From the IMG/VR virus record IMGVR_UViG_3300028186_000155: DNA of 64,000 nucleotides. The stretch is one strand, 5' to 3'. The notes beneath the pieces are model-generated. The model did not search any database. It was not told the origin of the DNA and saw only the letters and a program-made list of their open reading frames with translations. The position numbers were made by a program, and so were the translations under genes. This stretch comes from a virus (lineage: Duplodnaviria > Caudoviricetes). Below are positions 12,254 through 31,761 of the stretch, one piece after another. Position 1 is the stretch's first letter. Each line of letters opens with the position of its first letter.

Positions 12254-12340
12254 AAACTTCCCTAAAAGTGTGAGCGTCTAACTTGCAGGCACAGTTGCCC
12301 GAAGAGGTTTCATTGTACCTATGGGCCGACGAACGGTCAA
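12254..12340 (-). promoter_or_regulatory. sigma70 promoter P1 with conserved leader
   Basis: TTGACC-17-TACAAT, hairpin, GACGCTCAC..TTAGGGAAGTTT. Confidence 0.85.
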
Positions 12341-18330: not shown

Positions 18331-18417
18331 AAACTTCCCTAATTGCGTGAGTGGGAGATTAGCGGGCAGCCAATCTCTAGGTGGCCCAAAGGTATCAAAG
18401 GCCTGTTAGGGAGTCAA
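18331..18417 (-). promoter_or_regulatory. sigma70 promoter P2 with conserved leader
   Basis: TTGACT-17-TACCTT (TGn extended), hairpin, CACTCACGCAATTAGGGAAGTTT. Confidence 0.8.
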
Positions 18418-18448
18418 CACCTTTCGTTTGGGCCAGTGGCTATGCCTC

Positions 18449-18478
18449 TGTACGCGCATACGCGCACGCATGCGTATA
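18449..18478. repeat. 30-bp perfect alternating purine-pyrimidine tract
   Basis: tgtacgcgcatacgcgcacgcatgcgtata. Confidence 0.85.
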
Positions 18479-18510
18479 AAGAAGCAGTGGCCAGCCCACC
18501 GGGCGCCAGA

Positions 18511-18550
18511 AACGCAAAAGGCCCCGCCAGCGCGAACTGGGGAGCCTTTA
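18511..18550 (-). terminator. intrinsic terminator
   Basis: AAGGCUCC..GGGGCCUUUU downstream of the paralog B cluster. Confidence 0.7.
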
Positions 18551-18553
18551 GGG

Positions 18554-18976
18554 TCAATCGGGATATGTGATGGTCCAGCGCCCAGCCTTGGAATCGAATT
18601 CAACCACACCCAGTCTCGGGGCAACGGTCGGTTTCGGCTCCTTACGTGGTTTCGGTATGTCCCACTCGTTGCGAATCTTCCCGTACTGGATTCGCGTGGC
18701 ATCGGGCTTAGCGCGGCTGCTTTCCAAAACGCGCACGTAATCTTTCAGGCGCATGTTTTCTGCCTTGAGGGAATACGCGTTCTGCTTGAATCCGCGCAGT
18801 GTCTCTTGTTGCTTGTGGTTGGCAATCTCCAGCTGTGAAACCCGGACGCTGTATTTGTGGCCCTCCTTTTCCGCTTCCAGAAATTTGCGGCGCCACACAA
18901 ACGACGACCACACCATAATGCCCAGCGCCACCAGCAGAATAATTACCGGCCATTGCCCATTCATGTTATGTGCCAC
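18554..18976 (-). CDS. TM + coiled-coil protein, paralog family B
   Basis: WSSFVWRRKF..GVVEFDSKAGRWTIT. Confidence 0.8.
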   Translation of the reverse strand: MAHNMNGQWPVIILLVALGIMVWSSFVWRRKFLEAEKEGHKYSVRVSQLEIANHKQQETLRGFKQNAYSLKAENMRLKDYVRVLESSRAKPDATRIQYGKIRNEWDIPKPRKEPKPTVAPRLGVVEFDSKAGRWTITYPD

Positions 18977-19338
18977 CTGCCAGACTTGATATCAAATGTG
19001 ACCATTCCCAAATGCGGCCCATCGCAAGGTTGATCAGGCACGCCATAAATACCTGCCTTGTGATCTAGCCGGTCATCGGTCTTTACGCGGCTGCCCTCTA
19101 GCGTGCGTACATATTGACGTAGCAAAATGTTTTGCGCTTTGAATTCCCTGTTACTCTGTTTGAATTCGTCCACTTCATTTTTGAGCCTGTGCCAATTGCC
19201 CCGAACGTGAGCAAGATCAGTGCGCAATCCATCAGCCTCATTAGATACGCGCATAAACTTGCGGCGCCAAACAAAAGAAGACCACATCATAACGCCGAGC
19301 ATCACCAGCGTAAGAATTAACGGCCAATCAGCATTCAT
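18961..19338 (-). CDS. TM + coiled-coil protein, paralog family B
   Basis: WSSFVWRRKF..GMVTFDIKSGRWHIT. Confidence 0.8.
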   Translation of the reverse strand: MNADWPLILTLVMLGVMMWSSFVWRRKFMRVSNEADGLRTDLAHVRGNWHRLKNEVDEFKQSNREFKAQNILLRQYVRTLEGSRVKTDDRLDHKAGIYGVPDQPCDGPHLGMVTFDIKSGRWHIT

Positions 19339-19607
19339 GTTACGCGCCAGCCTCCAGTCTTTTTGCACAGTTCGAAAGTAGCGCCCACCTGTTCCTGTTC
19401 CTTGGGCGTATCGTACTTGGAGCGGAATTTGTGCAGGTGACGCAATTGCAGGTTTTCTACTTCCAGCAGCATTGCTTTCGCTTCGGCTGCCTGCACACGG
19501 CGGCGCATGGCGGTTATGCGTTCGTATTGTTTCACCGACAGCATAACCATGAACATGCAGGCGCCAATTAAAAACACGGTGCCGATTTGTGACCCGGTAA
19601 TGGTCAT
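19335..19607 (-). CDS. TM + coiled-coil protein, paralog family B (divergent)
   Basis: GGAGG RBS; GATFELCKKTGGWRVT. Confidence 0.75.
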   Translation of the reverse strand: MTITGSQIGTVFLIGACMFMVMLSVKQYERITAMRRRVQAAEAKAMLLEVENLQLRHLHKFRSKYDTPKEQEQVGATFELCKKTGGWRVT

Positions 19608-19615
19608 GGTGCCTC

Positions 19616-20008
19616 CTACGAATGGCAGTCGATTTTTACGCGGGCGTTGGTGGCTGCTGCGGCCTGTTCCATCGCCGGGCGCATATGGTCGGCATTCTTG
19701 GCACACGCAGGCTCGGCGTATTCTTTGCCGTAGAACTGCGCCAGTGCGAAACCGTCGCACTGTTCGTTCTCCGTGCCCTGCGCCGCGCACACTTTGAAAT
19801 TCAGTGTGGCCAGCACGGGCAACTTACTTTCGGGCATGCCGCTTTTGCAGCTAAAGGTTCCTGTGCGCTTTTCTTTAAGCGCAGATTCCTGCATGCCGTC
19901 ACGATTGTAATTGCACATGAAAGCAGCTTGCGCCGTGAAGAAATCTGCGACACGCACTTCCTTGCACGGTTGACCAGCCAGACAAATATTCAGCATCAGC
20001 GAAAGCAT
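19616..20008 (-). CDS. Cys-rich protein with two internal repeats (YebW/DUF1482-like)
   Basis: LNICL..PC...FF..C repeated as LNFKVC..C..FY..C. Confidence 0.6.
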   Translation of the reverse strand: MLSLMLNICLAGQPCKEVRVADFFTAQAAFMCNYNRDGMQESALKEKRTGTFSCKSGMPESKLPVLATLNFKVCAAQGTENEQCDGFALAQFYGKEYAEPACAKNADHMRPAMEQAAAATNARVKIDCHS

Positions 20009-20026
20009 TTTATGTTCCTTAGACCA

Positions 20027-20599
20027 TTAGGCCAGTGTGATTACTTTTTTGTTGTCGCTGCCACGTGTGTCGTTCAGCCATTTGACTGCGCGCTTCACGT
20101 AGCGTTTGAAGTCACCGACGTTTTCACAGTCGATATAGTCGTGGTCGTTTTCCGGGGTGGCGATGCGCTGAAGTTTGAAACGGCTTTTCGGATAACGCAC
20201 TTTCCATTGGAACGACAACGGCAGGTCGTAGGCATCAGGTTCCATACCGCGACCATAACTGAAGTCGATTTCGTGGCCTGCGTTGGTTTTAAACGTGAAG
20301 CACCAGCCATATTGCACCGGCCCGAAAACGCCTTCATGTTCCACACTGGAAACGATGGCGCCCAGTTGTTCGGCTGCGGCTTTTAGTCGCGCAATGATTT
20401 TTTCTTGGCGTTTGAATTCTGCGTCGATACGGACAATCAGTTCGGCCAAGGAAATTTCCCGATGCTGCGCCGCCTGCAACATGCGCAAATGGTTATGTGC
20501 CGCTTGGAAAACTTCTTCGGCGTTGGCCAGCATTTGATCGTGTTGCGCGTCCCATGCGAAGCCGGTGGCAGGGATTTCAATTTTCTTTGCGCGTGCCAT
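20027..20599 (-). CDS. hypothetical protein
   Basis: GAGGA RBS; N-terminal coiled coil. Confidence 0.8.
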   Translation of the reverse strand: MARAKKIEIPATGFAWDAQHDQMLANAEEVFQAAHNHLRMLQAAQHREISLAELIVRIDAEFKRQEKIIARLKAAAEQLGAIVSSVEHEGVFGPVQYGWCFTFKTNAGHEIDFSYGRGMEPDAYDLPLSFQWKVRYPKSRFKLQRIATPENDHDYIDCENVGDFKRYVKRAVKWLNDTRGSDNKKVITLA

Positions 20600-20601
20600 G
20601 T

Positions 20602-21126
20602 TTATTCCTCTTCCGCTGGTTCGTAGCGGTAAATGGTAATCAGGTGGTGAGTGACGCCGTTGCGCACTTCGGTTTTCTTACCGTAGCCACCGCTGTACAT
20701 CCAGCCGTCAGCAACACGATTTGGCGGCAGCTTCGGTTCCTCGTCCCAAGCTTTTTTCGGCTGCGCCCTGATCCAAATTTCTTTGGTCACTTTACCCAAG
20801 CCGAAATATTCCGCGCTCTGTTCGAATTCCCACTGGGCGCGAATTTCTGCGCGGTTGCCCATTGCAGCCATCAGGCCACCGGCAGGAATGGTGATGGTGC
20901 CGAACGAACGCGACGACCGATCACAGATAACACGAATTTCGAGATTGAAATCTATGTCGCTGTTGTGGTCAGGGCGGTGCAGCGCGTAATCAATTTCACG
21001 CCGGTTAATATTGATGCGCACCGGGTAAAGCTTTTTGATTTCGGCAGGCACCGTGATTTCATTTTCAGGTTTACGCATACAATCCTCACAGGTAAGCGTA
21101 AGCGTCGAGTTCCGGCAATTTTTCAT
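20602..21126 (-). CDS. hypothetical protein
   Basis: start may be MRKPE (~21078). Confidence 0.7.
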   Translation of the reverse strand: MKNCRNSTLTLTCEDCMRKPENEITVPAEIKKLYPVRININRREIDYALHRPDHNSDIDFNLEIRVICDRSSRSFGTITIPAGGLMAAMGNRAEIRAQWEFEQSAEYFGLGKVTKEIWIRAQPKKAWDEEPKLPPNRVADGWMYSGGYGKKTEVRNGVTHHLITIYRYEPAEEE

Positions 21127-21709
21127 CGCGCTTGAATCGGCGCATGGTCCACAAAGCGGTTTGAATTCGCCCCTCGTCGTGCAGCAAATTCACCGGGTAG
21201 ATTTCCAGCGGTGGCCGGTAGGTGCGGCGCAGCGCGTCCATTGGATCGCGCACAGCAGGCCCCGAATAAACCACCATCACTTCTTTGCTCGCCATGATGA
21301 ACCGGATAACGAAACCGTGAGTCATCATCGCCAGCGAGAAATCATCAAACGTTTTACCTTCGCACGGGAAACCATCCACGTTCGGATAATCGAACCGGGG
21401 TTTCTCTGTATTTACAGTTTCGACCTCAACCACGGTTTCAATTTCACCCGCCGTTTCAGTTTCACGCATACGGGCCAACGCCCGCTCTTCAGCAGTGAAC
21501 GGGATATCCCGCACAGGCGTTTGATTTGCAGCGTTCCAGAAACCGCCCGGCTCTTCGTCGGTGGTGATTTCCGAAATATCCAGATCGGGCAAGGCGCGTT
21601 CAACGCTATCAGCCTTTTCCAGTTTGGTAATGCGCCACAAAGCATAAACGCACAGCACCACCAAAATGCCCAGCACCGCAAAGAACAATTTGATATGCAG
21701 CGTATCCAT
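21086..21709 (-). CDS. N-terminally anchored membrane protein
   Basis: single TM helix; GGGAG RBS. Confidence 0.75.
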   Translation of the reverse strand: MDTLHIKLFFAVLGILVVLCVYALWRITKLEKADSVERALPDLDISEITTDEEPGGFWNAANQTPVRDIPFTAEERALARMRETETAGEIETVVEVETVNTEKPRFDYPNVDGFPCEGKTFDDFSLAMMTHGFVIRFIMASKEVMVVYSGPAVRDPMDALRRTYRPPLEIYPVNLLHDEGRIQTALWTMRRFKRDEKLPELDAYAYL

Positions 21710-21740
21710 TTGCTACTCCCATCGACTTTTTCAAGGTCGA

Positions 21741-21778
21741 AAAATAACCCCCTTTGAACTGGTCGCCGGGGGTTTATT
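21741..21778 (-). terminator. intrinsic terminator
   Basis: AACCCCC..GGGGGUUAUUUUU after the 508-aa gene. Confidence 0.65.
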
Positions 21779-21796
21779 GGTTTGGGTACTGCCGAG

Positions 21797-23323
21797 TTAC
21801 AGCGCGTTGAACTCGGCAATGGTCATGGTGTTGGCGTAGGTCGGTTGGCCGTCGTTCATGTAGATCAGATCGAGAGGCAAACCGGCGTGACCTTCGGCGG
21901 CAGATACTGCGGTCGAAACACCGTCACGTTTCACGATACGCAGCACCGAAACGATTTTCGATTTTGCGCCCTTCGTTACGCGTACCCCCAGTTCCTTGAT
22001 TTCGTCGCGGGTAGGCTTAACGGTGGTGCCTTTCTTTGCAGTGCCCTTGCCTTCAGCGGCTGCGAAATTCAGGCGTGGAGCCTTGCCGTTTACTTCCTGT
22101 GCCGCTTGCTTGGCTGGGGCCTTGCGGGTGTTCTCGGCAGACTTTGCACCGGCTTTAGCGTTGGTCGAAGCTACACCGGCCTTTTCCATGGCGCCGGAAA
22201 TCAGGGCCAAATCAGAAACGCGGAACTTGCCTTTCACTTCGATGATTGCGGCCAGTGGTACACGCTTGCCGCTGGTGGTGATTACCACGCGTTCGTCGGT
22301 TTCTTTGACGCGCATGATTTTCTCAACCTGTTCCAGCTTGCGGCCATCCATGAAACCTTTGGCGCGCAATTCGGTGGTGCTGATTGCCTTGTGGGCAGGT
22401 GCTGCATTTACTACGGCCTTGGTGGTCGGGGCCTTTGGCGCAGGCTGCGAAGTTTCTTTGTGCTGTGCAGCCGATTTTTCGAGGCCGTGGTTTTTGACCA
22501 TGCGACCTTTGCGAGTGGTGGAAATCTTGGTGGTGAGGTGCTTCCAAGGCTGTGCGGATTCCTCGAATGCGCGCACGTCTTTCAGCGACATATCATCGTA
22601 GGCCCACACTGCTTTGTCCTTCATGGTGACAAACAGCGTTTTGGTGTTGCGGTCGTACTGGGCGCCAGTCAACTGGGTGCTGGTTTTGACTTTCAGGTCG
22701 CGGATTGGGAACACGCGGCCTTCGGTGGCGCTGGCAGCGGCCTTACCGGCGTTTTTGGTGCTGGCCGGGGTTTCGGTCGGGAAATCTTCCTGCTCGACTG
22801 CTGGGGCCTTCGCTGGGGCTTTGGAACCACCTTTTACTGGGGCAGCAGGGGCAGCGGTGTATTTGTCCACCAGATCCAGCTTAACGCGCAGGTTGCCGCG
22901 ATTGTTGAATTCCAGATCGGCAGCGGCGATTTTGCTGCCCTTGTCGGTAACGACAGTGCGCACGCCAGCGATGTTCGAAATACGCAGCACCTTTTCTTTG
23001 CTGCGACCGATCATCAGTTCACCAGCTTCGCGGATGGCGCCGGATTTCAGTTCTACCGCGTCAGCTTTCGGCGCTGGGGCAGCTTTGCCAGCCGGGGCCT
23101 TGGTTTCGGTCGCTTTCGGCGCTGGGGTGCCAGCAGCGGCTTGCTTGGCTTTGAAATCCTTCAGCCAGCTGTTCAGTTCGCGATAGGTAACGCCGTTACC
23201 GATATCGTCACCGAGTTTGTACAGCGGGGCGCCGGTTTCTTTTTTGTGTTGCTTGTTACGCTCGATCAGCGATTCAGCAGCAGCAACCAGCAGGGCAGTT
23301 TGAGTGTGGATTACGTTGGTCAT
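21797..23323 (-). CDS. Lys/Ala-rich multidomain nucleic-acid-binding protein with KTSC domain
   Basis: STQLTGAQYDRNTKTLFVTMKDKAVWAYDDM..F.ES; three related basic modules; KAPA linkers. Confidence 0.75.
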   Translation of the reverse strand: MTNVIHTQTALLVAAAESLIERNKQHKKETGAPLYKLGDDIGNGVTYRELNSWLKDFKAKQAAAGTPAPKATETKAPAGKAAPAPKADAVELKSGAIREAGELMIGRSKEKVLRISNIAGVRTVVTDKGSKIAAADLEFNNRGNLRVKLDLVDKYTAAPAAPVKGGSKAPAKAPAVEQEDFPTETPASTKNAGKAAASATEGRVFPIRDLKVKTSTQLTGAQYDRNTKTLFVTMKDKAVWAYDDMSLKDVRAFEESAQPWKHLTTKISTTRKGRMVKNHGLEKSAAQHKETSQPAPKAPTTKAVVNAAPAHKAISTTELRAKGFMDGRKLEQVEKIMRVKETDERVVITTSGKRVPLAAIIEVKGKFRVSDLALISGAMEKAGVASTNAKAGAKSAENTRKAPAKQAAQEVNGKAPRLNFAAAEGKGTAKKGTTVKPTRDEIKELGVRVTKGAKSKIVSVLRIVKRDGVSTAVSAAEGHAGLPLDLIYMNDGQPTYANTMTIAEFNAL

Positions 23324-23328
23324 GATCT

Positions 23329-23415
23329 AACTTCCTATAAAGTGTGAGTGTCAAACTTAGTCGGCGTGGTTGCCGATTGGATTTCAGAATGCCATTAGAG
23401 GCGCGTGCGTGTCAA
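23329..23415 (-). promoter_or_regulatory. sigma70 promoter P3 with conserved leader
   Basis: TTGACA-18-CATTCT (TGn), hairpin, GACACTCACACTTTATAGGAAGTT. Confidence 0.7.
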
Positions 23416-23702
23416 CGGCTTTTGCGTCGGGTTTCGTTTAGGACCGGGCGAATCTGCAATGCCGGGTCGTTGTTGTACAGGATTCCGTCCGCACCAATGT
23501 AGGTTCCGGGCGCAACGTGCCAAACCTGCATGTGCGGTTCCAGCTTCCTGCGCGGGCCGCCCTCAACTTTCGAAAGCGCTTCCTTGATGGTTTCGCCCCG
23601 GCCCCACTCCCCGAAATCCACGACGATGAATTGTGTTAGCGCCGGGTCGAGGTTGGCGGGGGTTTCGATTTCCGTTTTCGAGACGGCAGCTTTGCGTGCC
23701 AT
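23412..23702 (-). CDS. hypothetical protein
   Basis: GGAG RBS. Confidence 0.75.
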   Translation of the reverse strand: MARKAAVSKTEIETPANLDPALTQFIVVDFGEWGRGETIKEALSKVEGGPRRKLEPHMQVWHVAPGTYIGADGILYNNDPALQIRPVLNETRRKSR

Positions 23703-23744
23703 GGTTCGTACTCCATTTGGGTTTGTGGTTTCAGTGCAGCCAGC

Positions 23745-23768
23745 TTGCGCACCATTCTAGATGCGCAA
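23745..23768 (-). promoter_or_regulatory. intercistronic hairpin family copy H6
   Basis: UUGCGCAUC-UAGAAU-GGUGCGCAA + UGAAAC. Confidence 0.7.
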
Positions 23769-23781
23769 ACGGGTTTACCTG

Positions 23782-24183
23782 TCAGGCGATGTTTCTGGTG
23801 GTGCGTGGTTCAATGTGCGGCACCACTTCACGTTCCAGCACCGTGGATAGAAGTTCAGCGGCTGCGTTTGCTGCGTGAACGTAAACCGCGTCACCTTTTG
23901 TACGCGTGGCAAAATACGTGCAGCCTTCCAAACATTCCGCCAGCGCTTCGGCCTGTTCCGGCGTCTGAATGCAAACGGCAATCAAGTGGCCGTTGCTGCT
24001 GGTAAACAGCGTGTCGAAAAACTCGATAGCCTTTTCCAGCGCCTCAACGTCTAGAGGATGTTCGCGCCCTTCGTTGAAAAGGGCGTCCAGTTCATCAAGC
24101 GCCATTTCCGCCAGAATAGAAAGGCGATGAATGAAAATTACGCGCTGGTGTAGCGTCAGGATCAGTTTCTGCGGGTAAGCCAT
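23782..24183 (-). CDS. hypothetical protein
   Basis: GGAG RBS. Confidence 0.75.
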   Translation of the reverse strand: MAYPQKLILTLHQRVIFIHRLSILAEMALDELDALFNEGREHPLDVEALEKAIEFFDTLFTSSNGHLIAVCIQTPEQAEALAECLEGCTYFATRTKGDAVYVHAANAAAELLSTVLEREVVPHIEPRTTRNIA

Positions 24184-24185
24184 TA

Positions 24186-24536
24186 TTAGTGCTCCGATTG
24201 TGGAATGTGGCTAAAGATGCCGGGGCCTTGTGCGCTGGGTTCCATGCGCAGGTTATTCAGACGGGCATAATCCACTTCGCGGGCGCAATAGGTACGCTCT
24301 TCAGAATCCTGCCCGAACGCAATGCTTTTGCGAACGGTGACAGTGCCGTCTTCGTTTACGGTGAAAGCCTGTTTGCCGAAAACCGGAAAGCCAATCACTG
24401 CGCGTTGGGTTTTGGCGTCGAGGCGAATTTCCTTACCTTCCAAATCTGACAGGCAGATGGTTTCAAAGAACGACAGCACGCCTGCGCTTTTTGGTACTGC
24501 CCAACTTTCGATTGCGGTGAATGCGATCCGGCTCAT
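24186..24536 (-). CDS. hypothetical early protein
   Basis: start refined to MSRIAF after the P4 leader. Confidence 0.75.
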   Translation of the reverse strand: MSRIAFTAIESWAVPKSAGVLSFFETICLSDLEGKEIRLDAKTQRAVIGFPVFGKQAFTVNEDGTVTVRKSIAFGQDSEERTYCAREVDYARLNNLRMEPSAQGPGIFSHIPQSEH

Positions 24537-24542
24537 GTTCCT

Positions 24543-24627
24543 AAACTTCCCTAATTCCGTGAGTGTCATTTTTGCAGGCACAGTTTGCCCGAGGCCCAAA
24601 CTTCTCAAATTCGGTTCCGGCTGTCAA
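24543..24627 (-). promoter_or_regulatory. promoter P4 (degenerate -10) with conserved leader
   Basis: TTGACA-17-GAAGTT, hairpin, GACACTCACGGAATTAGGGAAGTTT. Confidence 0.65.
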
Positions 24628-24849
24628 GCGGCCAATGCAAAAACGGCGGCACCTCTTATACGCGTGTACGCGTGCGAGCGCGTTCCCGTTCCTGAAGTTC
24701 TGCCGTGTGCGCTTCGATTTGGCGGGCCGTGCGTTCGTAGATGCTGCCATGTACGCGGTCGCGCCAGATTTCAAAACAGATGCCGAGCGCACACACAAAC
24801 CAAAGTGCGATTGGTAGGCATTCGGGTGTGCTCAGTATGGTTTCGAGGA

Positions 24850-25056
24850 TCATGGTTTTGGTTCCCCATCAGGTTTTTGGTGCAGGTGCGCTTTCAACTG
24901 CGCTTCGTGTTCGGCAATCTGCCGTTCCTCTTCTGCCTGCCTTCTTTTCATCGCTGCGTACTCGTTGCGCATGTAAATGCCGAACAGGATAAGCAGTGTC
25001 ACCGCCAGAAAAATAATGCCAGCGAATACTATGTTGCGGATCGTCTCCAGTTCCAT
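24850..25056 (-). CDS. small single-TM protein
   Basis: AGGAGG RBS before MELETIR. Confidence 0.75.
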   Translation of the reverse strand: MELETIRNIVFAGIIFLAVTLLILFGIYMRNEYAAMKRRQAEEERQIAEHEAQLKAHLHQKPDGEPKP

Positions 25057-25069
25057 ATGCCCTCCTATG

Positions 25070-25093
25070 AAAAAGCCGGGACGTGCCCGGCTC
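25070..25093 (-). terminator. intrinsic terminator
   Basis: GAGCCGGG-CACGU-CCCGGCUUUUU. Confidence 0.75.
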
Positions 25094-25110
25094 ATTTATT
25101 ACCGCTGGAA

Positions 25111-25569
25111 TTATTCTGTACCCAGCGGATATTTTGCGGTGTCGCGATTGGCCAGCCAGAATTTCAGCAGGGCCTCGGTATTTTCTACAACCGAGTTGCA
25201 CAGCGAATCGGGCTGAATGCGCGAACCCATCTGGTGATGAATAATGTGCGGGTCGAAAAGGTCGCATTGCGAGTTGTACACGTCTTCGAAAATCGAAGAG
25301 GCTGTGCAGTCGCTGCTGGTCCCCGGTTTGATGTTCATCAGGAACGGCAATTGCGTTTTGTAGGCCGTAATCTGCTGGCGCAATTCGTGGAGCGCCTGCA
25401 CCGTGATTTCTTCGCCGCCGTCCTTGATGAATGTGGCGGTGTCCAGAAATTCTGCAACGGCCATCAGGGCAGGCAGCTTTTCGCGGAACTTGGCGCTTTG
25501 CATGAATGCACGCACGCGGCCTTGCGCGCTGTCATAAATGCGCTGGGTGTCACCGATTGGTTTAGTCAT
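25111..25569 (-). CDS. hypothetical protein
   Basis: coupled ORF. Confidence 0.75.
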   Translation of the reverse strand: MTKPIGDTQRIYDSAQGRVRAFMQSAKFREKLPALMAVAEFLDTATFIKDGGEEITVQALHELRQQITAYKTQLPFLMNIKPGTSSDCTASSIFEDVYNSQCDLFDPHIIHHQMGSRIQPDSLCNSVVENTEALLKFWLANRDTAKYPLGTE

Positions 25570-25813
25570 GGGGCTGGTCCTTTAGATAATCGTTAGCTTC
25601 GTGGAATTTTGCGAGCGGACGCCCGCACATTGCGCAGTAGTTGGAGCGGTAGCAAAAGCCGGGGTGCGGAACGGCAATCCGTTTGGTCTTTTCGTTCCAG
25701 TCCGCAATCACCTTCTGAAACGCGGTAGCCTTTTTCATCCAGTCGCGTTCGCAGATGGCGACGTTTTGAATTTCACCAACAATGCAGGTTCCGGGCTTAC
25801 ACTGTTTTGTCAT
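25562..25813 (-). CDS. small Zn-finger-like protein
   Basis: CKPGTC / YCAMCG. Confidence 0.7.
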   Translation of the reverse strand: MTKQCKPGTCIVGEIQNVAICERDWMKKATAFQKVIADWNEKTKRIAVPHPGFCYRSNYCAMCGRPLAKFHEANDYLKDQPHD

Positions 25814-25997
25814 CGTCAGATTTTCCTGCGTGCTTGAGCACAGTCAAAATTAATTGGTGCTCGAAATCCATCTGCTGTTTGCGTGCCTTGTAGTGCATGT
25901 GCATTTTCCAGCAGCGCAGCGCTTCAGGGCCTACGACCAGCAGCACGACCAGCACAGGCACCGCGAACAGCAACCACTTGATTAATTCAGGCGTCAT
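25797..25997 (-). CDS. small TM protein
   Basis: N-terminal hydrophobic helix. Confidence 0.65.
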   Translation of the reverse strand: MTPELIKWLLFAVPVLVVLLVVGPEALRCWKMHMHYKARKQQMDFEHQLILTVLKHAGKSDDDKTV

Positions 25998-26580
25998 AAG
26001 CTACAGGTTCCTCGTAATCCAGCCCTTGGTTTCTGCAAAACTCTTTGTGTGTGATGGTCAGACGCAAAAGCTCGACAGGCTTATTTGTACCGGCGCCAAA
26101 ACTATTTGCCGTTTTAAGCATGTGGTCGCGATCAATCCGGCGCCTCAATTTCTGCGCCAGACGATCCCCAAATTCCGTTGCGTCTGGCAAACGTTCCAAC
26201 CACATATCAACGTACTCGGCGCCGCTTACATTATGCACCTGTTCGTAAATCGGTTCGTCATTGGCGCTGAAACCACTGGGCCACAAACGATTGGTCAGCA
26301 GTGCCCAGCGCAGGCGGTAGCCTTTCGGCACGTCGTGGGTGCGGTTGTCAGGGTCCATATAAATATGCGCCTCGATAAATTTCGGCGGCACGCTTTGCAT
26401 GTGGTCAGGTATCGCCAACACTTTCAGCGATTCGCGGCTTTTGCTTGCGTGGTCGAGTTCAGCCCACAACTTTTCCAGCAGCGTATCGACGTTGCAATTT
26501 TTGTCGCTCTGAATGTCGATGATGGCCTGCGCCAGTTTAATCACGACATTGTTTTTGTAGCCCATGATTTGGTCCTTCAA
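25987..26580 (-). CDS. hypothetical protein
   Basis: coupled ORF. Confidence 0.75.
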   Translation of the reverse strand: MKDQIMGYKNNVVIKLAQAIIDIQSDKNCNVDTLLEKLWAELDHASKSRESLKVLAIPDHMQSVPPKFIEAHIYMDPDNRTHDVPKGYRLRWALLTNRLWPSGFSANDEPIYEQVHNVSGAEYVDMWLERLPDATEFGDRLAQKLRRRIDRDHMLKTANSFGAGTNKPVELLRLTITHKEFCRNQGLDYEEPVAYDA

Positions 26581-27059
26581 ACGGTGGTGAAGTGCTGGCG
26601 TGAGCCAAGGGCAAACGCGTTGTTAAATTCGGTCACGTCAATGTCATGGAACCGGTAAATGGCATTGCCGCCAGTGGTCAGTCCGAGTTGAACCGTGCTC
26701 CACTGCGAATCGCCCATGAGGCGATTTACAGCCTCTTCAATTTCAGGCTGGCGGAACTGGAATTTGGCGCCGGTTTCTTCCACCGGGCGTTGCACGTCAT
26801 GCTCAGGATTCATAATCGCAATGACGTTCATTTTGTCGTAGGTGAATTCCTGCCCTTCGTGGGTCAGGCGTACACATGCGACGTAAGGGCGGAAGCGCAG
26901 GTCTGCGAATTTGTCAGAAGAGCGCAGGTCGATTTTGGTATGGCACGTTTCGCCGCCGAACTCGAAAATGCGTTTCTGCAATTCGTCGTCATGCGCGATT
27001 AGCCACAAAATCATTTCGGTCGTTGGTTGGGTTTCAGACAGCACGGCGACGAAAAACAT
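26577..27059 (-). CDS. hypothetical protein
   Basis: GAGGA RBS. Confidence 0.75.
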   Translation of the reverse strand: MFFVAVLSETQPTTEMILWLIAHDDELQKRIFEFGGETCHTKIDLRSSDKFADLRFRPYVACVRLTHEGQEFTYDKMNVIAIMNPEHDVQRPVEETGAKFQFRQPEIEEAVNRLMGDSQWSTVQLGLTTGGNAIYRFHDIDVTEFNNAFALGSRQHFTTV

Positions 27060-27087
27060 TGGTTGATCCTCAAATTAGTTTCCTACT

Positions 27088-27114
27088 GACAAAGCCCGCA
27101 CAGGGCGGGCTAAG
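27088..27114 (-). terminator. repeated terminator-like hairpin T1
   Basis: CUUAGCCCGCCCUGUGCGGGCUUUGUC. Confidence 0.75.
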
Positions 27115-27120
27115 TTTGGG

Positions 27121-27354
27121 TCAGTGGGCGCGCTTACGGATGGTTTCCAGCAGCGGCATTTCATGCTCAACGAAAGTGTTTTGTTTGCGGTCCAGTGCGG
27201 CCACCACGTGGCCCCGTTCCGATTCGTCCACTGCCCACTCTAAGGTCGCGGTGGCGTAGGACATTAATTCCTGCGTGGTTTTGATTCCGCACCGCTCCAT
27301 CAGTTTCAGCAGGCGTGCGGCGGTGGCTTCGTCGGTGATGATTTCGTGTCGCAT
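27121..27354 (-). CDS. ribbon-helix-helix-like DNA-binding protein
   Basis: MRHEIITDEATAARLLKLMERCGIKTTQELMSYA; GGAG RBS. Confidence 0.65.
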   Translation of the reverse strand: MRHEIITDEATAARLLKLMERCGIKTTQELMSYATATLEWAVDESERGHVVAALDRKQNTFVEHEMPLLETIRKRAH

Positions 27355-27367
27355 TTTATTTCTCCGG

Positions 27368-27565
27368 TCAGTGCTGTTTGATTTTCTTGATTCGCCACGT
27401 GTCGCACTTGGGGCAATGCGTGGTGTATTTGCGGTGATGAATATCGCCGCGCTTGCCCCGGTCGATTGCGGTAAAAGAACCATCGACCGCGCTAGACCAC
27501 AGCACGTCTTCGACCTTCACCAATTTGAAATTGTGACGGCACAGCAATTGGCGCAGCCAAATCAT
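27368..27565 (-). CDS. small Zn-ribbon protein
   Basis: CRH..CPKC. Confidence 0.65.
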   Translation of the reverse strand: MIWLRQLLCRHNFKLVKVEDVLWSSAVDGSFTAIDRGKRGDIHHRKYTTHCPKCDTWRIKKIKQH

Positions 27566-27975
27566 TTTGCGTTCTCCAGAACGGCCACGCGCTTAGGAAT
27601 GCGGCGCGCTTTAGTTCCATCGGGCATGCGTACCCACACGTATTCAGAAAGGGCCGTAACGATCCCACAAAAGAGCGTAGAGCCGTTATTCAGGCCCACG
27701 GCCACAGTATCACCGAGCCTTATCAATTTACCGCGCACGTCGAGTGGAATAGGCGGTGTGTAATCCGGGTTCGCGTAACGCGTAACCAACGCCACCAATT
27801 GCTTTGTGTCGAGGTCGTTAACCAGCAGGCTAGAAATGAAACGGCCACGCTCGCCATTTACGAAAACGAACCAGCACCATTTTTTGCCGTCCTGATCCTT
27901 TTTCAACTTCAGGCCTTTCCGGTCCAGCAGCTTGTTCGCGTCAACAATTTTTGTGTGGCGTTCTTGGACGATCAT
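27562..27975 (-). CDS. hypothetical protein with C-terminal SH3/KOW-like domain
   Basis: DVRGKLIRLGDTVAV. Confidence 0.7.
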   Translation of the reverse strand: MIVQERHTKIVDANKLLDRKGLKLKKDQDGKKWCWFVFVNGERGRFISSLLVNDLDTKQLVALVTRYANPDYTPPIPLDVRGKLIRLGDTVAVGLNNGSTLFCGIVTALSEYVWVRMPDGTKARRIPKRVAVLENAK

Positions 27976-27982
27976 GCGAGCC

Positions 27983-28264
27983 TCAATTCTTTTTCAGGAT
28001 TTCTTCGATTTCGCCGCCCCACAAACCAATGTCGGGGATGCGTTGGCTATCGTGCGGCCAGCCTTCGCGCTGCGGCCCGTATTCTGTATCAGGGTCCATT
28101 TCTGCGCAGATCGTCGGCGGGCAATTTGCCCAGTACAGGATGCAAGTCACGGTGCCTTGGCCGGTCGATCCGTCGCGGCTTTTAATTCGGATGCGCGTGC
28201 CGGGCACAATATCTTGATCGCACCAGTTGAACGAAGGCAATTTGTTAGGGCGGTTATTGCTCAT
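27983..28264 (-). CDS. hypothetical protein
   Basis: AGGA RBS. Confidence 0.7.
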   Translation of the reverse strand: MSNNRPNKLPSFNWCDQDIVPGTRIRIKSRDGSTGQGTVTCILYWANCPPTICAEMDPDTEYGPQREGWPHDSQRIPDIGLWGGEIEEILKKN

Positions 28265-28293
28265 GCTGCAATTCCTTTGTCTGGTTTACTACT

Positions 28294-28320
28294 GACAAAG
28301 CCCGCACAGGGCGGGCTAAG
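28294..28320 (-). terminator. repeated terminator-like hairpin T2
   Basis: 27-mer identical to T1. Confidence 0.75.
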
Positions 28321-28329
28321 TTTTCGGGT

Positions 28330-28497
28330 TTAGACTTCTGATCCGTCTTCGGCTTCGCGTGGGGTCACGGATTTAATCGGCCCCATATGAGAAAACGAAC
28401 GTTGGATAAATTCGCGCACGTCCTGTTGATCGGTGCCGTACTCTTCCATTACTTCACCGCTTTCGAAAACCACGTCCCACAAAATCGACTGGCTCAT
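28330..28497 (-). CDS. 55-aa acidic protein (MSQSILWDVVFESGEVMEEYG...)
   Basis: hand-translated; AGGAGG RBS; fills a gap in the ORF track. Confidence 0.7.
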   Translation of the reverse strand: MSQSILWDVVFESGEVMEEYGTDQQDVREFIQRSFSHMGPIKSVTPREAEDGSEV

Positions 28498-29078
28498 TAG
28501 TTGGCCTCCTTATCAGCCGGGAATTCGTCTGCGCTGTCCGTGTCGTCTAGCAATTCGTCCTCGGCGCTTTCTGCGCTGGCCTCTGTGACGTTTTCAGGGC
28601 CTACCGCGATGTATGTAAGGGCCTCGGTGATCGAACGCGTAACGGCCTTGTCGCCGCCTACGTGATACGGCGTCAGGCTCGCCACGTTATCCAGATACGC
28701 CACCTCTTCGTAACCTGCCCAACCAGAATGGCGCCCGTCACTGCAAACCACGCGGTGACGGAAACCGGAGTCGTTCCAGTTTTGTGAGCCTTCTTTGGTT
28801 TCCACGTCGTAACGAATATCGTCAGACTCTTCGTCAGGGGCCAGACTGCGCTCGACCGCAATGGCTTCAGCAGCAGGGGCCAGAGCCACAATTTCATCCA
28901 CCGACAATTCCCAAAAAGATTTGGCAGTCAGTTCACGGAGGAAAACACGCTCGCCAACGTGGCGGAAGCAATAGCCGCGCCCGATAGGGGTGAATTGCAT
29001 TCCTTTGTAGTGCTCGGTTTTTTGCAGCGCTTCGCTAACTGCGTTGAGTTTGGTGTGGCGGTCTGCTTGAGTGCTCAT
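28497..29078 (-). CDS. hypothetical protein with acidic tail
   Basis: GAGGA RBS. Confidence 0.8.
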   Translation of the reverse strand: MSTQADRHTKLNAVSEALQKTEHYKGMQFTPIGRGYCFRHVGERVFLRELTAKSFWELSVDEIVALAPAAEAIAVERSLAPDEESDDIRYDVETKEGSQNWNDSGFRHRVVCSDGRHSGWAGYEEVAYLDNVASLTPYHVGGDKAVTRSITEALTYIAVGPENVTEASAESAEDELLDDTDSADEFPADKEAN

Positions 29079-29113
29079 GTGTTCCTCGGTTTTCCGTTGG
29101 TTGGTTTACTACC

Positions 29114-29139
29114 GACAAACCCCGCACTAGGCGGGGTTA
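29114..29139 (-). terminator. repeated terminator-like hairpin T3 (compensatory variant)
   Basis: AACCCCGC-CUAGU-GCGGGGUUUGUC. Confidence 0.7.
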
Positions 29140-29143
29140 TTTG

Positions 29144-29341
29144 TCATTCTGGAATGCGTTTCCATTCACGATAAAATTCGGCTTCGGGAATCACTATGCG
29201 CTGACCGCTACGCACGTAATAAATGGCATCACCACACGCACCAACGCGCTGGCCTTTGTGGATGTTCACCTGCTGGCTAGTGGCGCTGCATTCGTAGCGC
29301 CCCAGCTTGCGTATACGGGTCAGTTTCATTTTGCCCCTCAC
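29144..29341 (-). CDS. hypothetical protein
   Basis: coupled small ORF. Confidence 0.7.
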   Translation of the reverse strand: MRGKMKLTRIRKLGRYECSATSQQVNIHKGQRVGACGDAIYYVRSGQRIVIPEAEFYREWKRIPE

Positions 29342-29538
29342 TCAAAATTGATTGCTGATACGCCGTTTACGCCAACCTGATACCGGTACGCCGGGCGACC
29401 GCCACGCGTATCGTACACGGTGTAAACCTCGCCTTCCTTTTCGACCACCTTGTGTTGGAGGTTGCTAAACGGGGCGCTGCTACCGTCCGCGAAGTCGATG
29501 ATCATGAATTGCGCTTTGATGATTTCTGCTTGGGCCAT
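29338..29538 (-). CDS. hypothetical protein
   Basis: AGGAG RBS. Confidence 0.75.
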   Translation of the reverse strand: MAQAEIIKAQFMIIDFADGSSAPFSNLQHKVVEKEGEVYTVYDTRGGRPAYRYQVGVNGVSAINFE

Positions 29539-29550
29539 TTGTGATGCTCC

Positions 29551-29778
29551 TTATTTCGAACGGCGGTCAAAAAGTTTTTTGGCGGCTTCCAGCGTCAGGT
29601 CTTTTTCGACGTAGCGCCAAGTCGAGACGTATTTGCCACGTACATAGTTAGTGCACAGCTTCCAAACGCCAAACGGTGCGTCGGGGTTTGCCAGCGAACC
29701 GTTGTCGCATTGCAGCGAGTAGGTAACGCCCTTGCTGTTTGTTTTGCGGTACACGATTTGCGCGCTGTGCAGTGCCAT
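29551..29778 (-). CDS. hypothetical early protein
   Basis: directly after the P5 leader. Confidence 0.8.
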   Translation of the reverse strand: MALHSAQIVYRKTNSKGVTYSLQCDNGSLANPDAPFGVWKLCTNYVRGKYVSTWRYVEKDLTLEAAKKLFDRRSK

Positions 29779-29783
29779 GGCTC

Positions 29784-29871
29784 AAACTTCCCTAATTGCG
29801 TGAGTGTCTGTTTTGCGGGCAGCAGCTGCCCAACTGGCCCCAAAGGTATCAAAGCCCCCGCCAAAGGTCAA
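29784..29871 (-). promoter_or_regulatory. sigma70 promoter P5 with conserved leader
   Basis: TTGACC-17-TACCTT (TGn), hairpin, GACACTCACGCAATTAGGGAAGTTT. Confidence 0.8.
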
Positions 29872-29938
29872 CCATTGGCCGCGATGCCTTATCTACGCGG
29901 GCGTGTACACGCGTATAAGCAACGCAGGCGCCAGAAAC

Positions 29939-29965
29939 GACAAAGCCCGCACAGGGCGGGCTAAG
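29939..29965 (-). terminator. repeated terminator-like hairpin T4
   Basis: 27-mer identical to T1/T2. Confidence 0.75.
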
Positions 29966-29969
29966 GGAT

Positions 29970-30470
29970 TCAAAGGGCAACGACTTCTGTTATCACCGGG
30001 TGGCGGTTGTAGTGCTGGCTCACATGCTCAGCCAATTTGAAGTGGCGTCCATAAATGTCGAGGTGGCGTCCACGTTCAAATTTGACCTTGAACAGAGATT
30101 CATTGGCTAACGGCCCTTTTACAAACTTGAGGCCGTCCACAATTCTGACCCGTGCTTTTGCCTGCTCGACTTTCGCCCGGTAGAAATCAATGGTCGTATC
30201 GGCGTCCGTCACCGTTTGCAGCCCGGCAATAAATCCGGTGGTGTTGTGCATGAGGCGGCGCGCATTAATCGCCAGATCATAAATCGGCGTGTGCTCGAAT
30301 TCGCGCAGGGCCTTCAAAGCGGCATCCTGCAAAAACTCGGAATCGGCAACAGGCTTGCGATTTTCGATTGCCTGTAGAACCTGCGTCGGGATGCACAGCA
30401 GGTGTGCCAAATCCGATTGCTTGATGCGCAGGCGCTGGCGCCATTGCTGAATTTTTCGTCCGTCGTGCAT
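29970..30470 (-). CDS. XRE/Cro-like HTH protein
   Basis: IQQWRQRLRIKQSDLAHLLCIPTQVLQAIEN. Confidence 0.75.
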   Translation of the reverse strand: MHDGRKIQQWRQRLRIKQSDLAHLLCIPTQVLQAIENRKPVADSEFLQDAALKALREFEHTPIYDLAINARRLMHNTTGFIAGLQTVTDADTTIDFYRAKVEQAKARVRIVDGLKFVKGPLANESLFKVKFERGRHLDIYGRHFKLAEHVSQHYNRHPVITEVVAL

Positions 30471-31282: not shown

Positions 31283-31369
31283 AAACTTCCTAAATTTCGT
31301 GAGTGTCGGGGCTGCGGCCACACTGCGCCACAAGCCCCGGAGTATACCGCTTTAAGCCGCTTCGGTCAA
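31283..31369 (-). promoter_or_regulatory. sigma70 promoter P6 with conserved leader
   Basis: TTGACC-17-TATACT, long hairpin, ACACTCACGAAATTTAGGAAGTTT. Confidence 0.85.
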
Positions 31370-31761
31370 ACCACCGGGCGCTCCCGCAACATGCGCCGTA
31401 GAGCGGCCCCGTAGCGGCGGGATACCGGGAACGTCTGGCCCCCGGTCAGGTGGGCGGTGAACAGGCCAGATGCAGGCAGACGGCGCACCTCGATCAGGTC
31501 GCTAAGACGGACGATGGTCGAACGGTGAATCTGCACGAATTCATCCGCGTATTCAGGTTTGGCGTGCAGAGCCATCAACGATTCATCCAGAATTGGCTGG
31601 CGGTCGGGTTCCCCGCGCAAATGCGCAATCACGTATTTTTGCGAAGCCTGAAACGCGATGATATCCGCATCATCGTATTCGATAACGGTCATGCCTATTT
31701 TGAAAACGTGTTGCTTTTTCACAGGCACCACATCAAACGGTACGTCGTCTTGCAGCTGCAT
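31366..31761 (-). CDS. stand-alone LytTR DNA-binding domain protein (AlgR C-terminal-like)
   Basis: IIAFQASQKYV..ILDESL..FVQIHRSTIV..FPVSRRY; no receiver domain. Confidence 0.88.
   Translation of the reverse strand: MQLQDDVPFDVVPVKKQHVFKIGMTVIEYDDADIIAFQASQKYVIAHLRGEPDRQPILDESLMALHAKPEYADEFVQIHRSTIVRLSDLIEVRRLPASGLFTAHLTGGQTFPVSRRYGAALRRMLRERPVV

What the first reader, a model, noticed from the sequence alone, without database searches (positions are those of the whole stretch)
18449..29917. Z-DNA-prone alternating purine/pyrimidine tracts just upstream of three early promoters
Seen: perfect RY alternation at 18449-18478 (30 bp) and 24657-24676 (20 bp), and 29894-29917 with one interruption. 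Each lies ~22-31 bp upstream of the -35 of P2, P4 or P5, and each ends in CGCGTA-N2-4-AGG on the minus strand. The P3 spacer also contains CACGCACGCGC. The sequences differ but the alternation is conserved. For P2 and P5 the module is terminator - TTTCTGGCGCC - RY tract - promoter. Established: CG-rich RY tracts adopt Z-DNA under the negative supercoiling generated behind RNA polymerase. Inference: a supercoiling sensor/sink or an activator site tuning early promoters; I know of no description of this architecture in phages.
Basis: partly seen in the sequence, partly recalled or inferred. Interest (0 to 1): 0.7.

Follow-up and report, generated by a model that had tools for sequence, protein, structure and literature searches.

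The report
Conserved alternating-base boxes upstream of phage promoters
The alternating purine/pyrimidine tracts are real and are conserved in Lu11-like jumbo Pseudomonas phages, but they are built from a specific repeated motif (CGCGTATA) at a fixed distance from promoters, so they look more like protein-binding control sites than left-handed-DNA supercoil sensors.

Summary
The three tracts are the longest perfect purine/pyrimidine (RY) alternations in the window. With a fourth outside the window (genome 190361-190384), they are the four longest in the 314-kb genome, and each lies upstream of a sigma70-like promoter cassette.

The same design recurs in HRDY3, several metagenomic relatives and the distant phage Lu11.

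The tracts are not free-form alternation. They are arrays of an 8-12 bp motif, (CGCA)CGCGTATA followed by GAGG, in inverted or direct orientation. The promoter-proximal copy ends 31-33 bp (or 20-22 bp) from the -35 hexamer, although the DNA in between is not conserved. Lu11 carries three tandem 19-bp copies of the motif. One relative keeps the end motifs but breaks the alternation between them, and three lineages lack the tract altogether.

The tracts do rank first in a Z-DNA energy scan of all four genomes. The margin is small (critical sigma about -0.036 to -0.040), the costly TA steps are enriched, and no Z-alpha domain is encoded.

Best reading (about 0.55): operator or activator sites for a sequence-specific protein. 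Z-DNA sink: about 0.15. Undescribed, moderately interesting. The scan has noted RY tracts in other phages, in different contexts.

The parts
18449..18478 (-). RY tract A (upstream of P2). On the gene strand it reads TATACGCA (inverted unit), a 6-bp gap, CGCGTATG, then CGCGTACA. The GAGGC flank lies at 18444-18448.
   Evidence: The HRDY3 ortholog is 32 bp and contains a perfect 22-bp palindrome.
24657..24676 (-). RY tract B (upstream of P4). Two direct units, CGCGTACA and CGCGTATA, followed by AGAGG. It overlaps the last codons and the stop codon of the upstream ORF 24656-24853.
29890..29917 (-). RY tract C (upstream of P5). Reads TATACGCG, TGTACACG, CC, CGCGTAGA, then TAAGG. The perfect run is 29901-29917.
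   Evidence: The same design is found in Lu11 and in L229.
18389..18417 (-). P2 core promoter: TTGACT, 17-bp spacer, TACCTT, with a TG extension.
24599..24627 (-). P4 core promoter: TTGACA, 17-bp spacer, GAAGTT, with a TG extension.
29843..29871 (-). P5 core promoter: TTGACC, 17-bp spacer, TACCTT, with a TG extension.
18331..18353 (-). Conserved 23-bp leader/ribosome-binding-site motif CACTCACGCAATTAGGGAAGTTT. Further copies lie at 24543-24565, 29784-29806 and 31283-31305.
18502..18546 (-). Terminator hairpin plus the conserved tail TTTTGCGTTTCTGGCGCC, upstream of tract A.
29927..29962 (-). Terminator hairpin plus the conserved tail TTTGTCGTTTCTGGCGCC, upstream of tract C.
   Evidence: The tail is identical in Lu11.
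29970..30470 (-). Gene for a 166-aa protein with an XRE-type helix-turn-helix (P0001), immediately upstream of tract C. Candidate binder.
   Evidence: The synteny is conserved in Lu11 and in metagenomic relatives.
31366..31761 (-). Gene for a 131-aa stand-alone LytTR DNA-binding protein. Second candidate binder.
31341..31369 (-). Strong promoter without a tract (TTGACC, 17-bp spacer, TATACT). It drives the operon that ends with the HTH gene.

Best explanation
Each tract is a composite cis-regulatory site: an array of two or three copies of an 8-12 bp motif, (CGCA)CGCGTAYA flanked by GAGG(C). The copies are arranged as inverted and/or direct repeats, and the whole element is close to CCTC-TATACGCG-N(even)-CGCGTATA-GAGG.

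The array sits at a fixed distance upstream of sigma70-type promoters that have a good -35 hexamer, a TG extension and a weak -10 hexamer.

The most likely mechanism is that a sequence-specific DNA-binding protein occupies these boxes and tunes host-RNA-polymerase initiation at the delayed-early operons, probably by activation from about -60 to -95. That protein could be made from the first early operon, which has a strong promoter and no tract. The candidates are the 166-aa XRE-type HTH protein encoded just upstream of tract C and the LytTR protein.

The alternation is a property of the motif and of how its copies abut. It may also supply the deformable pyrimidine-purine steps that a DNA-bending protein needs.

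What is shown: the motif, its arrangement, its spacing and its conservation. What is inferred: protein binding, the direction of the effect and the identity of the binder.
For: 1. The exact 12-mer CGCACGCGTATA occurs 8 times in four genomes (own, HRDY3, G001, Lu11), and every copy is in a promoter-upstream tract. Allowing one mismatch, 15 of 20 hits lie 83-134 nt upstream of a leader motif, against 0 of 15 for the reversed control.
2. Lu11 shares only about 40% amino-acid identity and has no other megablast-level DNA similarity in this 14-kb region apart from one 56-nt stretch. It nevertheless has the same cassette with TATACGCG...CGCGTATAGAAGG. One Lu11 promoter carries three tandem 19-bp units, TGCGCACGCGTATAGAGGC, which include the non-alternating GAGGC.
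3. The distance from the proximal CGCGTA to TTGAC is 31-33 bp in ten cassettes from six lineages and 20-22 bp in the C group. The 23 nt next to the -35 hexamer are only 32% identical between non-orthologous cassettes.
4. In L228 the spacer GGCGCC breaks the alternation, yet the end motifs (TACGCACGCG and CGCGTATAGAGGC) and the 33-bp distance are kept. G001 tract A likewise keeps its ends but has interior breaks.
5. Promoters with a tract have weak -10 hexamers (TACCTT, GAAGTT, TAACCT). Most promoters without one have TATACT, TACAAT or TATAAT.
6. Synteny is conserved: LytTR gene, strong promoter, HTH regulator gene, terminator, tract, next promoter. This holds in the window's genome, HRDY3, Lu11 and metagenomic relatives.
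7. PaBG, a more distant relative, has neither a run of 17 or more nor a P0001 homolog.
Against: - No binding data exist, and the binder is not identified.
- Half-site spacings differ between cassettes: centre-to-centre 8, 10, 14, 18, 22 and 24 bp. This does not fit one rigid dimer.
- The D cassette has its site 46-47 bp from the -35 hexamer, which is not in helical phase with the others.
- Three lineages (L004/L005, L225, L226) lack tract C yet keep the same weak -10 promoter and both candidate regulators. The site is therefore dispensable there.
- The interiors between the end motifs are mostly alternating and always of even length. A pure two-half-site model does not require this.
- The residues at the start of the predicted recognition helix differ between P0001 (PTQV) and its Lu11 homolog (EPAR), although the DNA motif is the same.
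- P0001 has no structural homolog beyond its HTH domain.
Confidence: 0.55

Rival explanations
1. Z-DNA supercoil sink or sensor. Negative supercoils generated behind RNA polymerase at the downstream promoter flip the tract to left-handed DNA. This absorbs 3-6 turns and tunes or insulates the promoter. No specific protein is needed.
For: - In a Z-Hunt-style scan using the Table 1 energies of PMC3024258, the tracts rank 1, 2, 3 and 5 in the window's genome, 1-3 in Lu11, 1-4 in HRDY3, and 1, 2, 3 and 5 in G001.
- The interiors between the end motifs vary in sequence but stay mostly alternating and of even length. Variable tract columns show transitions only in 28 cases against 14 with transversions. 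In the flanks the figures are 91 against 149 (Fisher p = 6e-4). The genome-wide transition fraction is 0.47.
- The tracts lie upstream of promoters, where negative supercoils accumulate. This last point rests on established knowledge (Liu and Wang twin-domain model; Rahmouni and Wells), cited from memory.
Against: - The critical sigma is about -0.036 to -0.040. The best unrelated sites in the same genomes reach -0.0395 to -0.042, so the margin is small.
- TA steps, the costliest alternating step for Z-DNA, are enriched 2.3-fold. CA/TG steps are depleted more than 2-fold.
- Sequence is conserved position by position, including non-alternating flanks.
- The distance to the -35 hexamer is fixed.
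- Alternation is broken in L228 and in G001 tract A while the end motifs persist.
- The upstream operons are co-directional, so their positive supercoils would cancel the negative ones.
- No Z-alpha domain and no C5 cytosine methylase were found in the genome.
- The transition bias is partly circular, because two alternating sequences aligned in phase can differ only by transitions.
Confidence: 0.15
2. Preferred site for a type II topoisomerase (the phage's own enzyme or host gyrase). A highly deformable alternating segment between transcription units serves as the gate segment, so that transcription-driven supercoils are removed locally.
For: - The phage encodes a topoisomerase II/IV A-subunit homolog (PF00521, E = 2.8e-58).
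- Strong gyrase sites and captured G-segments are unusually deformable (PMC13284261). Alternating tracts maximise the flexible pyrimidine-purine steps.
- Tracts A and C lie directly after terminators.
Against: - Tracts B and D have no terminator upstream. The constant neighbour is the promoter, at a fixed distance.
- Topoisomerase motifs are degenerate, whereas here a 12-mer is shared exactly across distant phages.
- No cleavage-site model was tested here.
Confidence: 0.08
3. Cruciform, DNA hairpin or RNA hairpin formed by the inverted repeat, by analogy with the extruded hairpins of N4 early promoters.
For: - The element is roughly palindromic.
- HRDY3 tracts A and D contain a perfect 20-22 bp palindrome.
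Against: - Folded as single strands, the tracts are no more stable than dinucleotide-preserving shuffles (z from +0.57 to -1.22).
- Changes in the two arms are independent rather than compensatory.
- Tract B has direct repeats only.
- No single-subunit RNA polymerase was detected, although that search's control matched nothing, so it is inconclusive.
Confidence: 0.04
4. Inherited cassette sequence or recombination boundary with no regulatory role. The tract simply travels with a duplicated terminator-promoter cassette that marks module junctions in a mosaic early region.
For: - The cassettes are paralogous and flank different gene sets. L004/L005 have a different first gene downstream of cassette C.
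- The tract is absent in three lineages.
Against: - The motif and its spacing persist from this genome to Lu11, while the neighbouring intergenic DNA has randomised.
- The motif copy number is amplified in Lu11.
Confidence: 0.08

Closest known systems
Class I-type upstream activator sites: CRP sites centred at -61.5, -72.5 and so on, and phage phi29 protein p4, whose inverted repeat is centred near -82 of the late A3 promoter (from general knowledge)
   Same: Repeated or inverted sequence-specific boxes lie at a fixed distance upstream of a host-polymerase promoter with an imperfect core. The boxes sit in two distance classes about one helical turn apart (20-22 and 31-33 bp from the -35 hexamer).
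   Different: The motif (CGCGTATA units, perfectly alternating) matches no site known to me or found in the paper search. The units abut at 8-bp spacing or with gaps of 2, 6, 10 or 14 bp. The D cassette is out of helical phase. No binder has been shown.
Engineered Z-DNA tracts upstream of E. coli promoters (Rahmouni and Wells, in vivo Z-DNA probes) and predicted Z-forming regions upstream of eukaryotic transcription start sites (SIBZ, PMC3024258)
   Same: Alternating tracts upstream of promoters that are the most Z-prone sites in their genome.
   Different: The natural tracts here are short, rich in TA steps, sequence-specific and only marginally more Z-prone than background.
LytTR-regulator sites: two 9-bp direct repeats separated by about 12 bp (AgrA, AlgR, ComE)
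   Same: A stand-alone LytTR protein is encoded in the same early region, and direct repeats lie upstream of promoters.
   Different: The observed repeat periods (8 and 19 bp) and the motif do not match LytTR sites. Inverted copies are common.
Phage N4 early-promoter hairpins (Dai et al. 1998, as cited in PMC13463272)
   Same: A structure-prone, partly palindromic DNA element at phage early promoters.
   Different: There is no excess hairpin stability and no compensatory change. The element lies far upstream of a sigma70-like core promoter rather than at the start site.

Membership tests
Z-DNA-forming regulatory tract | Alternating purine/pyrimidine run long enough to flip (at least 8-12 bp) | tested here: met
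   Perfect runs of 30, 24, 20 and 17 bp
Z-DNA-forming regulatory tract | B-to-Z energy low enough to flip at superhelical densities reachable in vivo, and clearly lower than elsewhere in the genome | tested here: inconclusive
   Critical sigma is -0.036 to -0.040 against -0.0395 to -0.042 for the best background sites. TA steps are enriched 2.3-fold.
Z-DNA-forming regulatory tract | Alternation conserved while the sequence is free to vary | tested here: not met
   An exact 12-mer and the GAGG flank are conserved as far as Lu11. Alternation is broken in L228 and in G001 tract A while the end motifs are kept.
Z-DNA-forming regulatory tract | Demonstrated left-handed conformation under supercoiling | not testable with these tools
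   Needs 2D gels or chemical probing
Upstream activator/operator site | Sequence-specific repeated or inverted motif found only at the regulated promoters | tested here: met
   15 of 20 motif hits lie upstream of leader motifs, against 0 of 15 for the control. All 8 exact copies are in tracts.
Upstream activator/operator site | Fixed distance or helical phase relative to the core promoter | tested here: inconclusive
   31-33 bp in ten cassettes and 20-22 bp in five are consistent with one face of the helix. The D cassettes at 46-47 bp and Lu11 #4 at 57 bp are not.
Upstream activator/operator site | Regulated promoters depend on the site (defective core element) | tested here: inconclusive
   Weak -10 hexamers correlate with tracts, but three lineages keep the same core promoter without a tract.
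Upstream activator/operator site | A cognate protein binds the site | not testable with these tools
   The candidates are P0001 (HTH_3, E = 5e-4, below the Pfam cut-off) and the LytTR protein (E = 3e-13). No protein-DNA modelling tool was available.
N4-type promoter hairpin / cruciform | A stable hairpin maintained by compensatory changes | tested here: not met
   z from +0.57 to -1.22 against shuffles. The two arms change independently.
LytTR binding site | Two 9-bp direct repeats about 21 bp apart | tested here: not met
   Repeat periods are 8 bp (tracts B and A) and 19 bp (Lu11 #1). Inverted copies are common.

The most novel reading that the evidence does not exclude
The boxes are natural B-Z (or otherwise supercoil-responsive) switches. 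A variable, even-length alternating core is bracketed by conserved TATA/CGCG junction motifs. Its handedness or deformation under transcription-driven supercoiling would decide whether a regulator bound at the end motifs can act. That would make them the first natural Z-DNA-based promoter control element in a bacteriophage.
Probability: 0.12. Interest if true: 0.75.

Novelty: new variant of a known kind. Interest (0 to 1): 0.4.

Why it matters
Lu11-like jumbo phages are almost uncharacterised at the level of transcription. This element, together with the conserved terminator tail, promoter and leader cassette, defines a second class of host-polymerase promoters. That implies an immediate-early to delayed-early cascade that could be tested with simple reporter fusions.

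The element is also a compact natural test case for separating 'DNA structure' from 'DNA sequence' in promoter control. The same 20-30 bp are both the most Z-prone DNA in four genomes and a conserved motif array.

Tried and rejected
- **Cruciform or hairpin:** single-strand folds are no better than shuffles, and there is no compensatory change.
- **RNA element:** tracts A and C lie after a terminator and tract B is coding. No covariation was seen.
- **Z-alpha domain (PF02295):** none in the genome.
- **C5 cytosine methylase (PF00145), which could stabilise Z-DNA:** none.
- **Single-subunit RNA polymerase (PF00940):** none found, but the control search matched nothing, so this is inconclusive. 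A sigma70-family gene is present.
- **More relatives via the 16-mer terminator tail in IMG/VR:** 117 hits were examined, almost all chance matches in unrelated contigs. Only 5 were real cassettes.
- **IMG/VR scan for TATACGCG-(YR)3-CGCGTATA:** no hit.
- **Literature search for the motif strings:** nothing relevant. The Lu11 genome announcement is not held in the library.
- **Fold search with the P0001 model (pLDDT 86.5):** no significant PDB match, only weak HTH-level hits (Aca1/Aca2, a phage 186 regulator).
- **P3 spacer run:** chance level and not conserved.
- **Sigma54-like GG-N10-GC in TTTCTGGCGCC plus the following DNA:** present in 3 of 4 C-group cassettes by eye, but with inconsistent spacing in Lu11 and tract A. 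Not pursued.
- **Transition/transversion test:** significant, but partly circular for two alternating sequences aligned in phase, so it was given little weight.


Full report
**Context.** The window is the reverse complement of positions 90118-154117 of a 314,224-bp phage genome with direct terminal repeats. Its closest named relative is Pseudomonas phage HRDY3, at about 78-80% nucleotide identity over alignable parts. Pseudomonas phage Lu11 is a distant relative. It shares only one 56-nt megablast match in this region, and its orthologous proteins are about 35-42% identical. Genes between 16 and 32 kb lie on the minus strand as short operons of small unknown proteins.

**Observation.** The three tracts are at the stated coordinates.
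- They are the three longest perfect purine/pyrimidine alternations in the window.
- With a 24-bp run at genome 190361-190384, they are the four longest in the genome.
- In the real genome the number of runs roughly halves with each extra base. On that basis, runs of 20, 24 and 30 bp are unexpected.
- A first-order Markov null that keeps dinucleotide content is less generous. It expects 4.1 runs of 17 or more (4 observed) and 0.62 of 20 or more (3 observed). The longest simulated run in 60 genomes was 25.
- The strong evidence is therefore positional. All four lie 110-135 nt upstream of a 23-bp leader motif that has about 11 copies per genome.

The shared cassette layout is as follows:
1. a terminator hairpin;
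2. the tail TTTGTCGTTTCTGGCGCC (cassettes A and C only);
3. the tract;
4. about 20-33 bp of unconserved DNA;
5. TTGACN, a 17-bp spacer with a TG extension, then a weak -10 hexamer;
6. a small hairpin;
7. the leader motif CACTCACGCAATTAGGGAAGTTT, then the ATG.

The P3 spacer run is at chance level and is not conserved.

**Conservation.**
- HRDY3 has alternating tracts of 32, 23, 14 and 20 bp at the four orthologous positions.
- A 308-kb IMG/VR genome (G001) and three further metagenomic relatives also carry them, with lengths from 8+12 to 24 bp.
- Lu11 has the same cassette at three or four promoters.
- In a simple Z-Hunt-type scan with the published B-Z energies (PMC3024258, Table 1), the tracts rank 1, 2, 3 and 5 in this genome, 1-3 in Lu11, 1-4 in HRDY3, and 1, 2, 3 and 5 in G001.
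- PaBG, a still more distant member of the group described in PMC7412058, has no run of 17 or more.

**What the tracts are made of.** They are not free-form alternation.
- On the gene strand the promoter-proximal end reads CGCGTA(T/C)A followed by GAGG(C). The distal end is usually the inverse, (CCTC)TATACGCG.
- HRDY3 tract A contains the perfect 22-bp palindrome TATACGCGTGC/GCACGCGTATA, and HRDY3 tract D contains a 20-bp version of it.
- The exact 12-mer CGCACGCGTATA occurs eight times in the four complete genomes, always in these tracts. With one mismatch allowed, 15 of 20 hits lie 83-134 nt upstream of a leader motif. The reversed control gives 0 of 15.
- One Lu11 promoter carries three tandem 19-bp units, TGCGCACGCGTATAGAGGC. 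The repeated unit therefore includes five non-alternating bases.
- Each tract can be read as a tiling of 8-bp units in either orientation:
  - inverted unit, 6-bp gap, direct unit (D, and the core of A);
  - the same plus one extra direct unit (A);
  - two inverted units, 2-bp gap, one direct unit (C and Lu11 #3);
  - two direct units (B).

**Spacing.** The proximal CGCGTA ends 31-33 bp before TTGAC in ten cassettes: A and B in three or four lineages, Lu11 #1-3, and L228. In the C cassettes of five lineages the distance is 20-22 bp, about one helical turn less. The 23 bp next to the -35 hexamer are only 32% identical between non-orthologous cassettes. The D cassettes (46-47 bp) and Lu11 #4 (57 bp) do not fit this phase.

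**Sequence versus alternation.**
- *For alternation itself.* The interiors between the end motifs vary between orthologs yet remain mostly alternating and of even length (6, 10, 14 or 16 bp). Variable tract columns are transition-only twice as often as not (28 against 14). In the flanks the ratio is 91 against 149 (p = 6e-4), and the genome-wide transition fraction is 0.47. This is partly circular, because two alternating sequences aligned in phase can differ only by transitions.
- *Against alternation itself.*
  - In L228 the interior is GGCGCC, which is not alternating, while the end motifs and the 33-bp distance are intact.
  - G001 tract A has three interior transversions but keeps its ends.
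  - The C-type tracts share a conserved GC-C-CGCGTA phase slip from this genome to Lu11.
- *Composition.* TA makes up 28% of pyrimidine-purine steps in the tracts against 12% genome-wide. CA/TG steps are depleted more than 2-fold. This is the opposite of what optimisation for the B-Z transition would give (TA 2.5, CA/TG 1.3 and CG 0.7 kcal/mol).
- *Energetics.* Estimated critical superhelical densities are -0.036 to -0.040. The best unrelated sites in the same genomes reach -0.0395 to -0.042.
- *Supporting genes.* The genome encodes no Z-alpha domain and no C5 cytosine methylase.
- *Topology.* The upstream operons are co-directional, so their positive supercoils would oppose the negative ones from the downstream promoter (inference).

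**Other structures.** Folded as single strands, the tracts are no more stable than dinucleotide-preserving shuffles (z from +0.57 to -1.22). The two arms change independently in orthologs. Tract B has no inverted copy. A cruciform, an N4-type promoter hairpin or an RNA hairpin is therefore unlikely.

**Regulatory logic (inference).**
- The region reads the same way in this genome, HRDY3, Lu11 and four metagenomic lineages. The order is: an endolysin-like gene; a stand-alone LytTR gene; a near-consensus promoter without a tract (TTGACC, 17 bp, TATACT at 31341-31369); two or three small genes; the 166-aa XRE-type HTH protein; a terminator; tract C; and the next promoter.
- Promoters with tracts have weak -10 hexamers, and most promoters without tracts are near consensus.
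- The genome carries a sigma70-family gene, and no single-subunit polymerase was detected. This fits the use of host polymerase that PMC7412058 suggests for PaBG, which carries a sigma70 factor gene.
- This pattern suggests an immediate-early product acting at upstream boxes of delayed-early promoters.

**Weak points of this reading.**
- Three lineages lack tract C yet keep the same core promoter and both candidate regulators.
- The start of the predicted recognition helix differs between P0001 and its Lu11 homolog although the motif is the same.
- The varied unit spacings do not fit one rigid dimer.
- The P0001 family is small, with about eight representatives among 1.8 billion clusters. It models confidently (pLDDT 86.5) as an HTH domain, a long helical hairpin and a small alpha/beta domain. 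No solved relative was found beyond the HTH domain.

**A further rival.** The phage encodes a type II topoisomerase A-subunit homolog, and gyrase prefers deformable G-segments (PMC13284261). An alternating tract between transcription units could therefore be a topoisomerase site. The exact motif conservation and the anchoring to the promoter, rather than to the terminator, argue against this.

**Verdict.**
- The 'activator site' half is favoured: about 0.55 for a sequence-specific protein site, less for activation specifically, and less again for a named binder.
- I found no description of the element in the Lu11 or HRDY3 annotations or in the searched literature.
- It is a new variant of a familiar kind of element, with an unusual alternating, tiled motif architecture.

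Noticed in passing
window 18331-18353, 24543-24565, 29784-29806, 31283-31305, 12254-12276, 23336-23358: A 23-bp leader motif, CACTCACGCAATTAGGGAAGTTT, ends 3-7 nt before the start codon and follows a small hairpin. It has about 11 copies per genome and is conserved as far as Lu11 (CAGTCACGCCATTAGGGAAGTTT). It is far more conserved than a ribosome-binding site needs to be. It may be a site for a translational regulator, or a processing or antitermination signal.
   Followed up: partly
window 29092-29147 (minus strand); Lu11 9223-9279; L225 5278-5345; L229 5198-5272: A second intergenic cassette consists of the hairpin AACCCCGCCTAGTGCGGGGTT followed by TGTCGGTAGTAAACCAA and a ribosome-binding site. 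It is 89.5% identical between this phage and Lu11, whose surrounding DNA is otherwise dissimilar.
   Followed up: partly
Lu11 record JQ768459, positions 170-243 (L026): Three perfect tandem 19-bp repeats, TGCGCACGCGTATAGAGGC, plus a further alternating tract, lie at the very start of the deposited record. The promoter they serve reads across the record's origin, so the record's start point cuts through this cassette and its downstream gene.
   Followed up: partly
L004 and L005 (IMG/VR 3300042010, 3300046522), L225, L226: cassette C: In lineages that lack the tract, the DNA between TTTCTGGCCCC and TTGAC is instead rich in short T/A runs (for example GGTTTGGTTTCCGGGCCGTTTCCGAAACCG). It could be a curved or UP-like substitute for the missing box.
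   Followed up: no
window 31772-32377 (minus) and 31366-31761 (minus): A 201-aa protein matches the C-terminal domain of VgrG3-like type VI spike proteins (PF21277, E = 5e-56) and is annotated as an endolysin in Lu11. It is followed by a stand-alone LytTR DNA-binding protein. The pair is syntenic in all relatives examined.
   Followed up: partly
HRDY3 L001 15666-16157; L225 3785-4279; L228 898-1383: Several relatives carry an extra gene of about 160 aa between the HTH regulator and cassette C. It has a weak match to T4 endonuclease V (Pyr_excise, PF03013). This genome lacks it at that position.
   Followed up: no
genome G000:C1:11529-12839 (minus) and 307562-307693 (minus), outside the window: The phage encodes a type II topoisomerase A-subunit homolog (541-aa open frame) and a sigma70-family protein (343-aa open frame).
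   Followed up: no
window 29927-29950 and orthologs: TGGCGC-N5-TTGCT, directly after terminator C, resembles a sigma54 -24/-12 element (GG-N10-GC). The same spacing is seen in 3 of 4 C-group cassettes, but not in Lu11 or cassette A.
   Followed up: no
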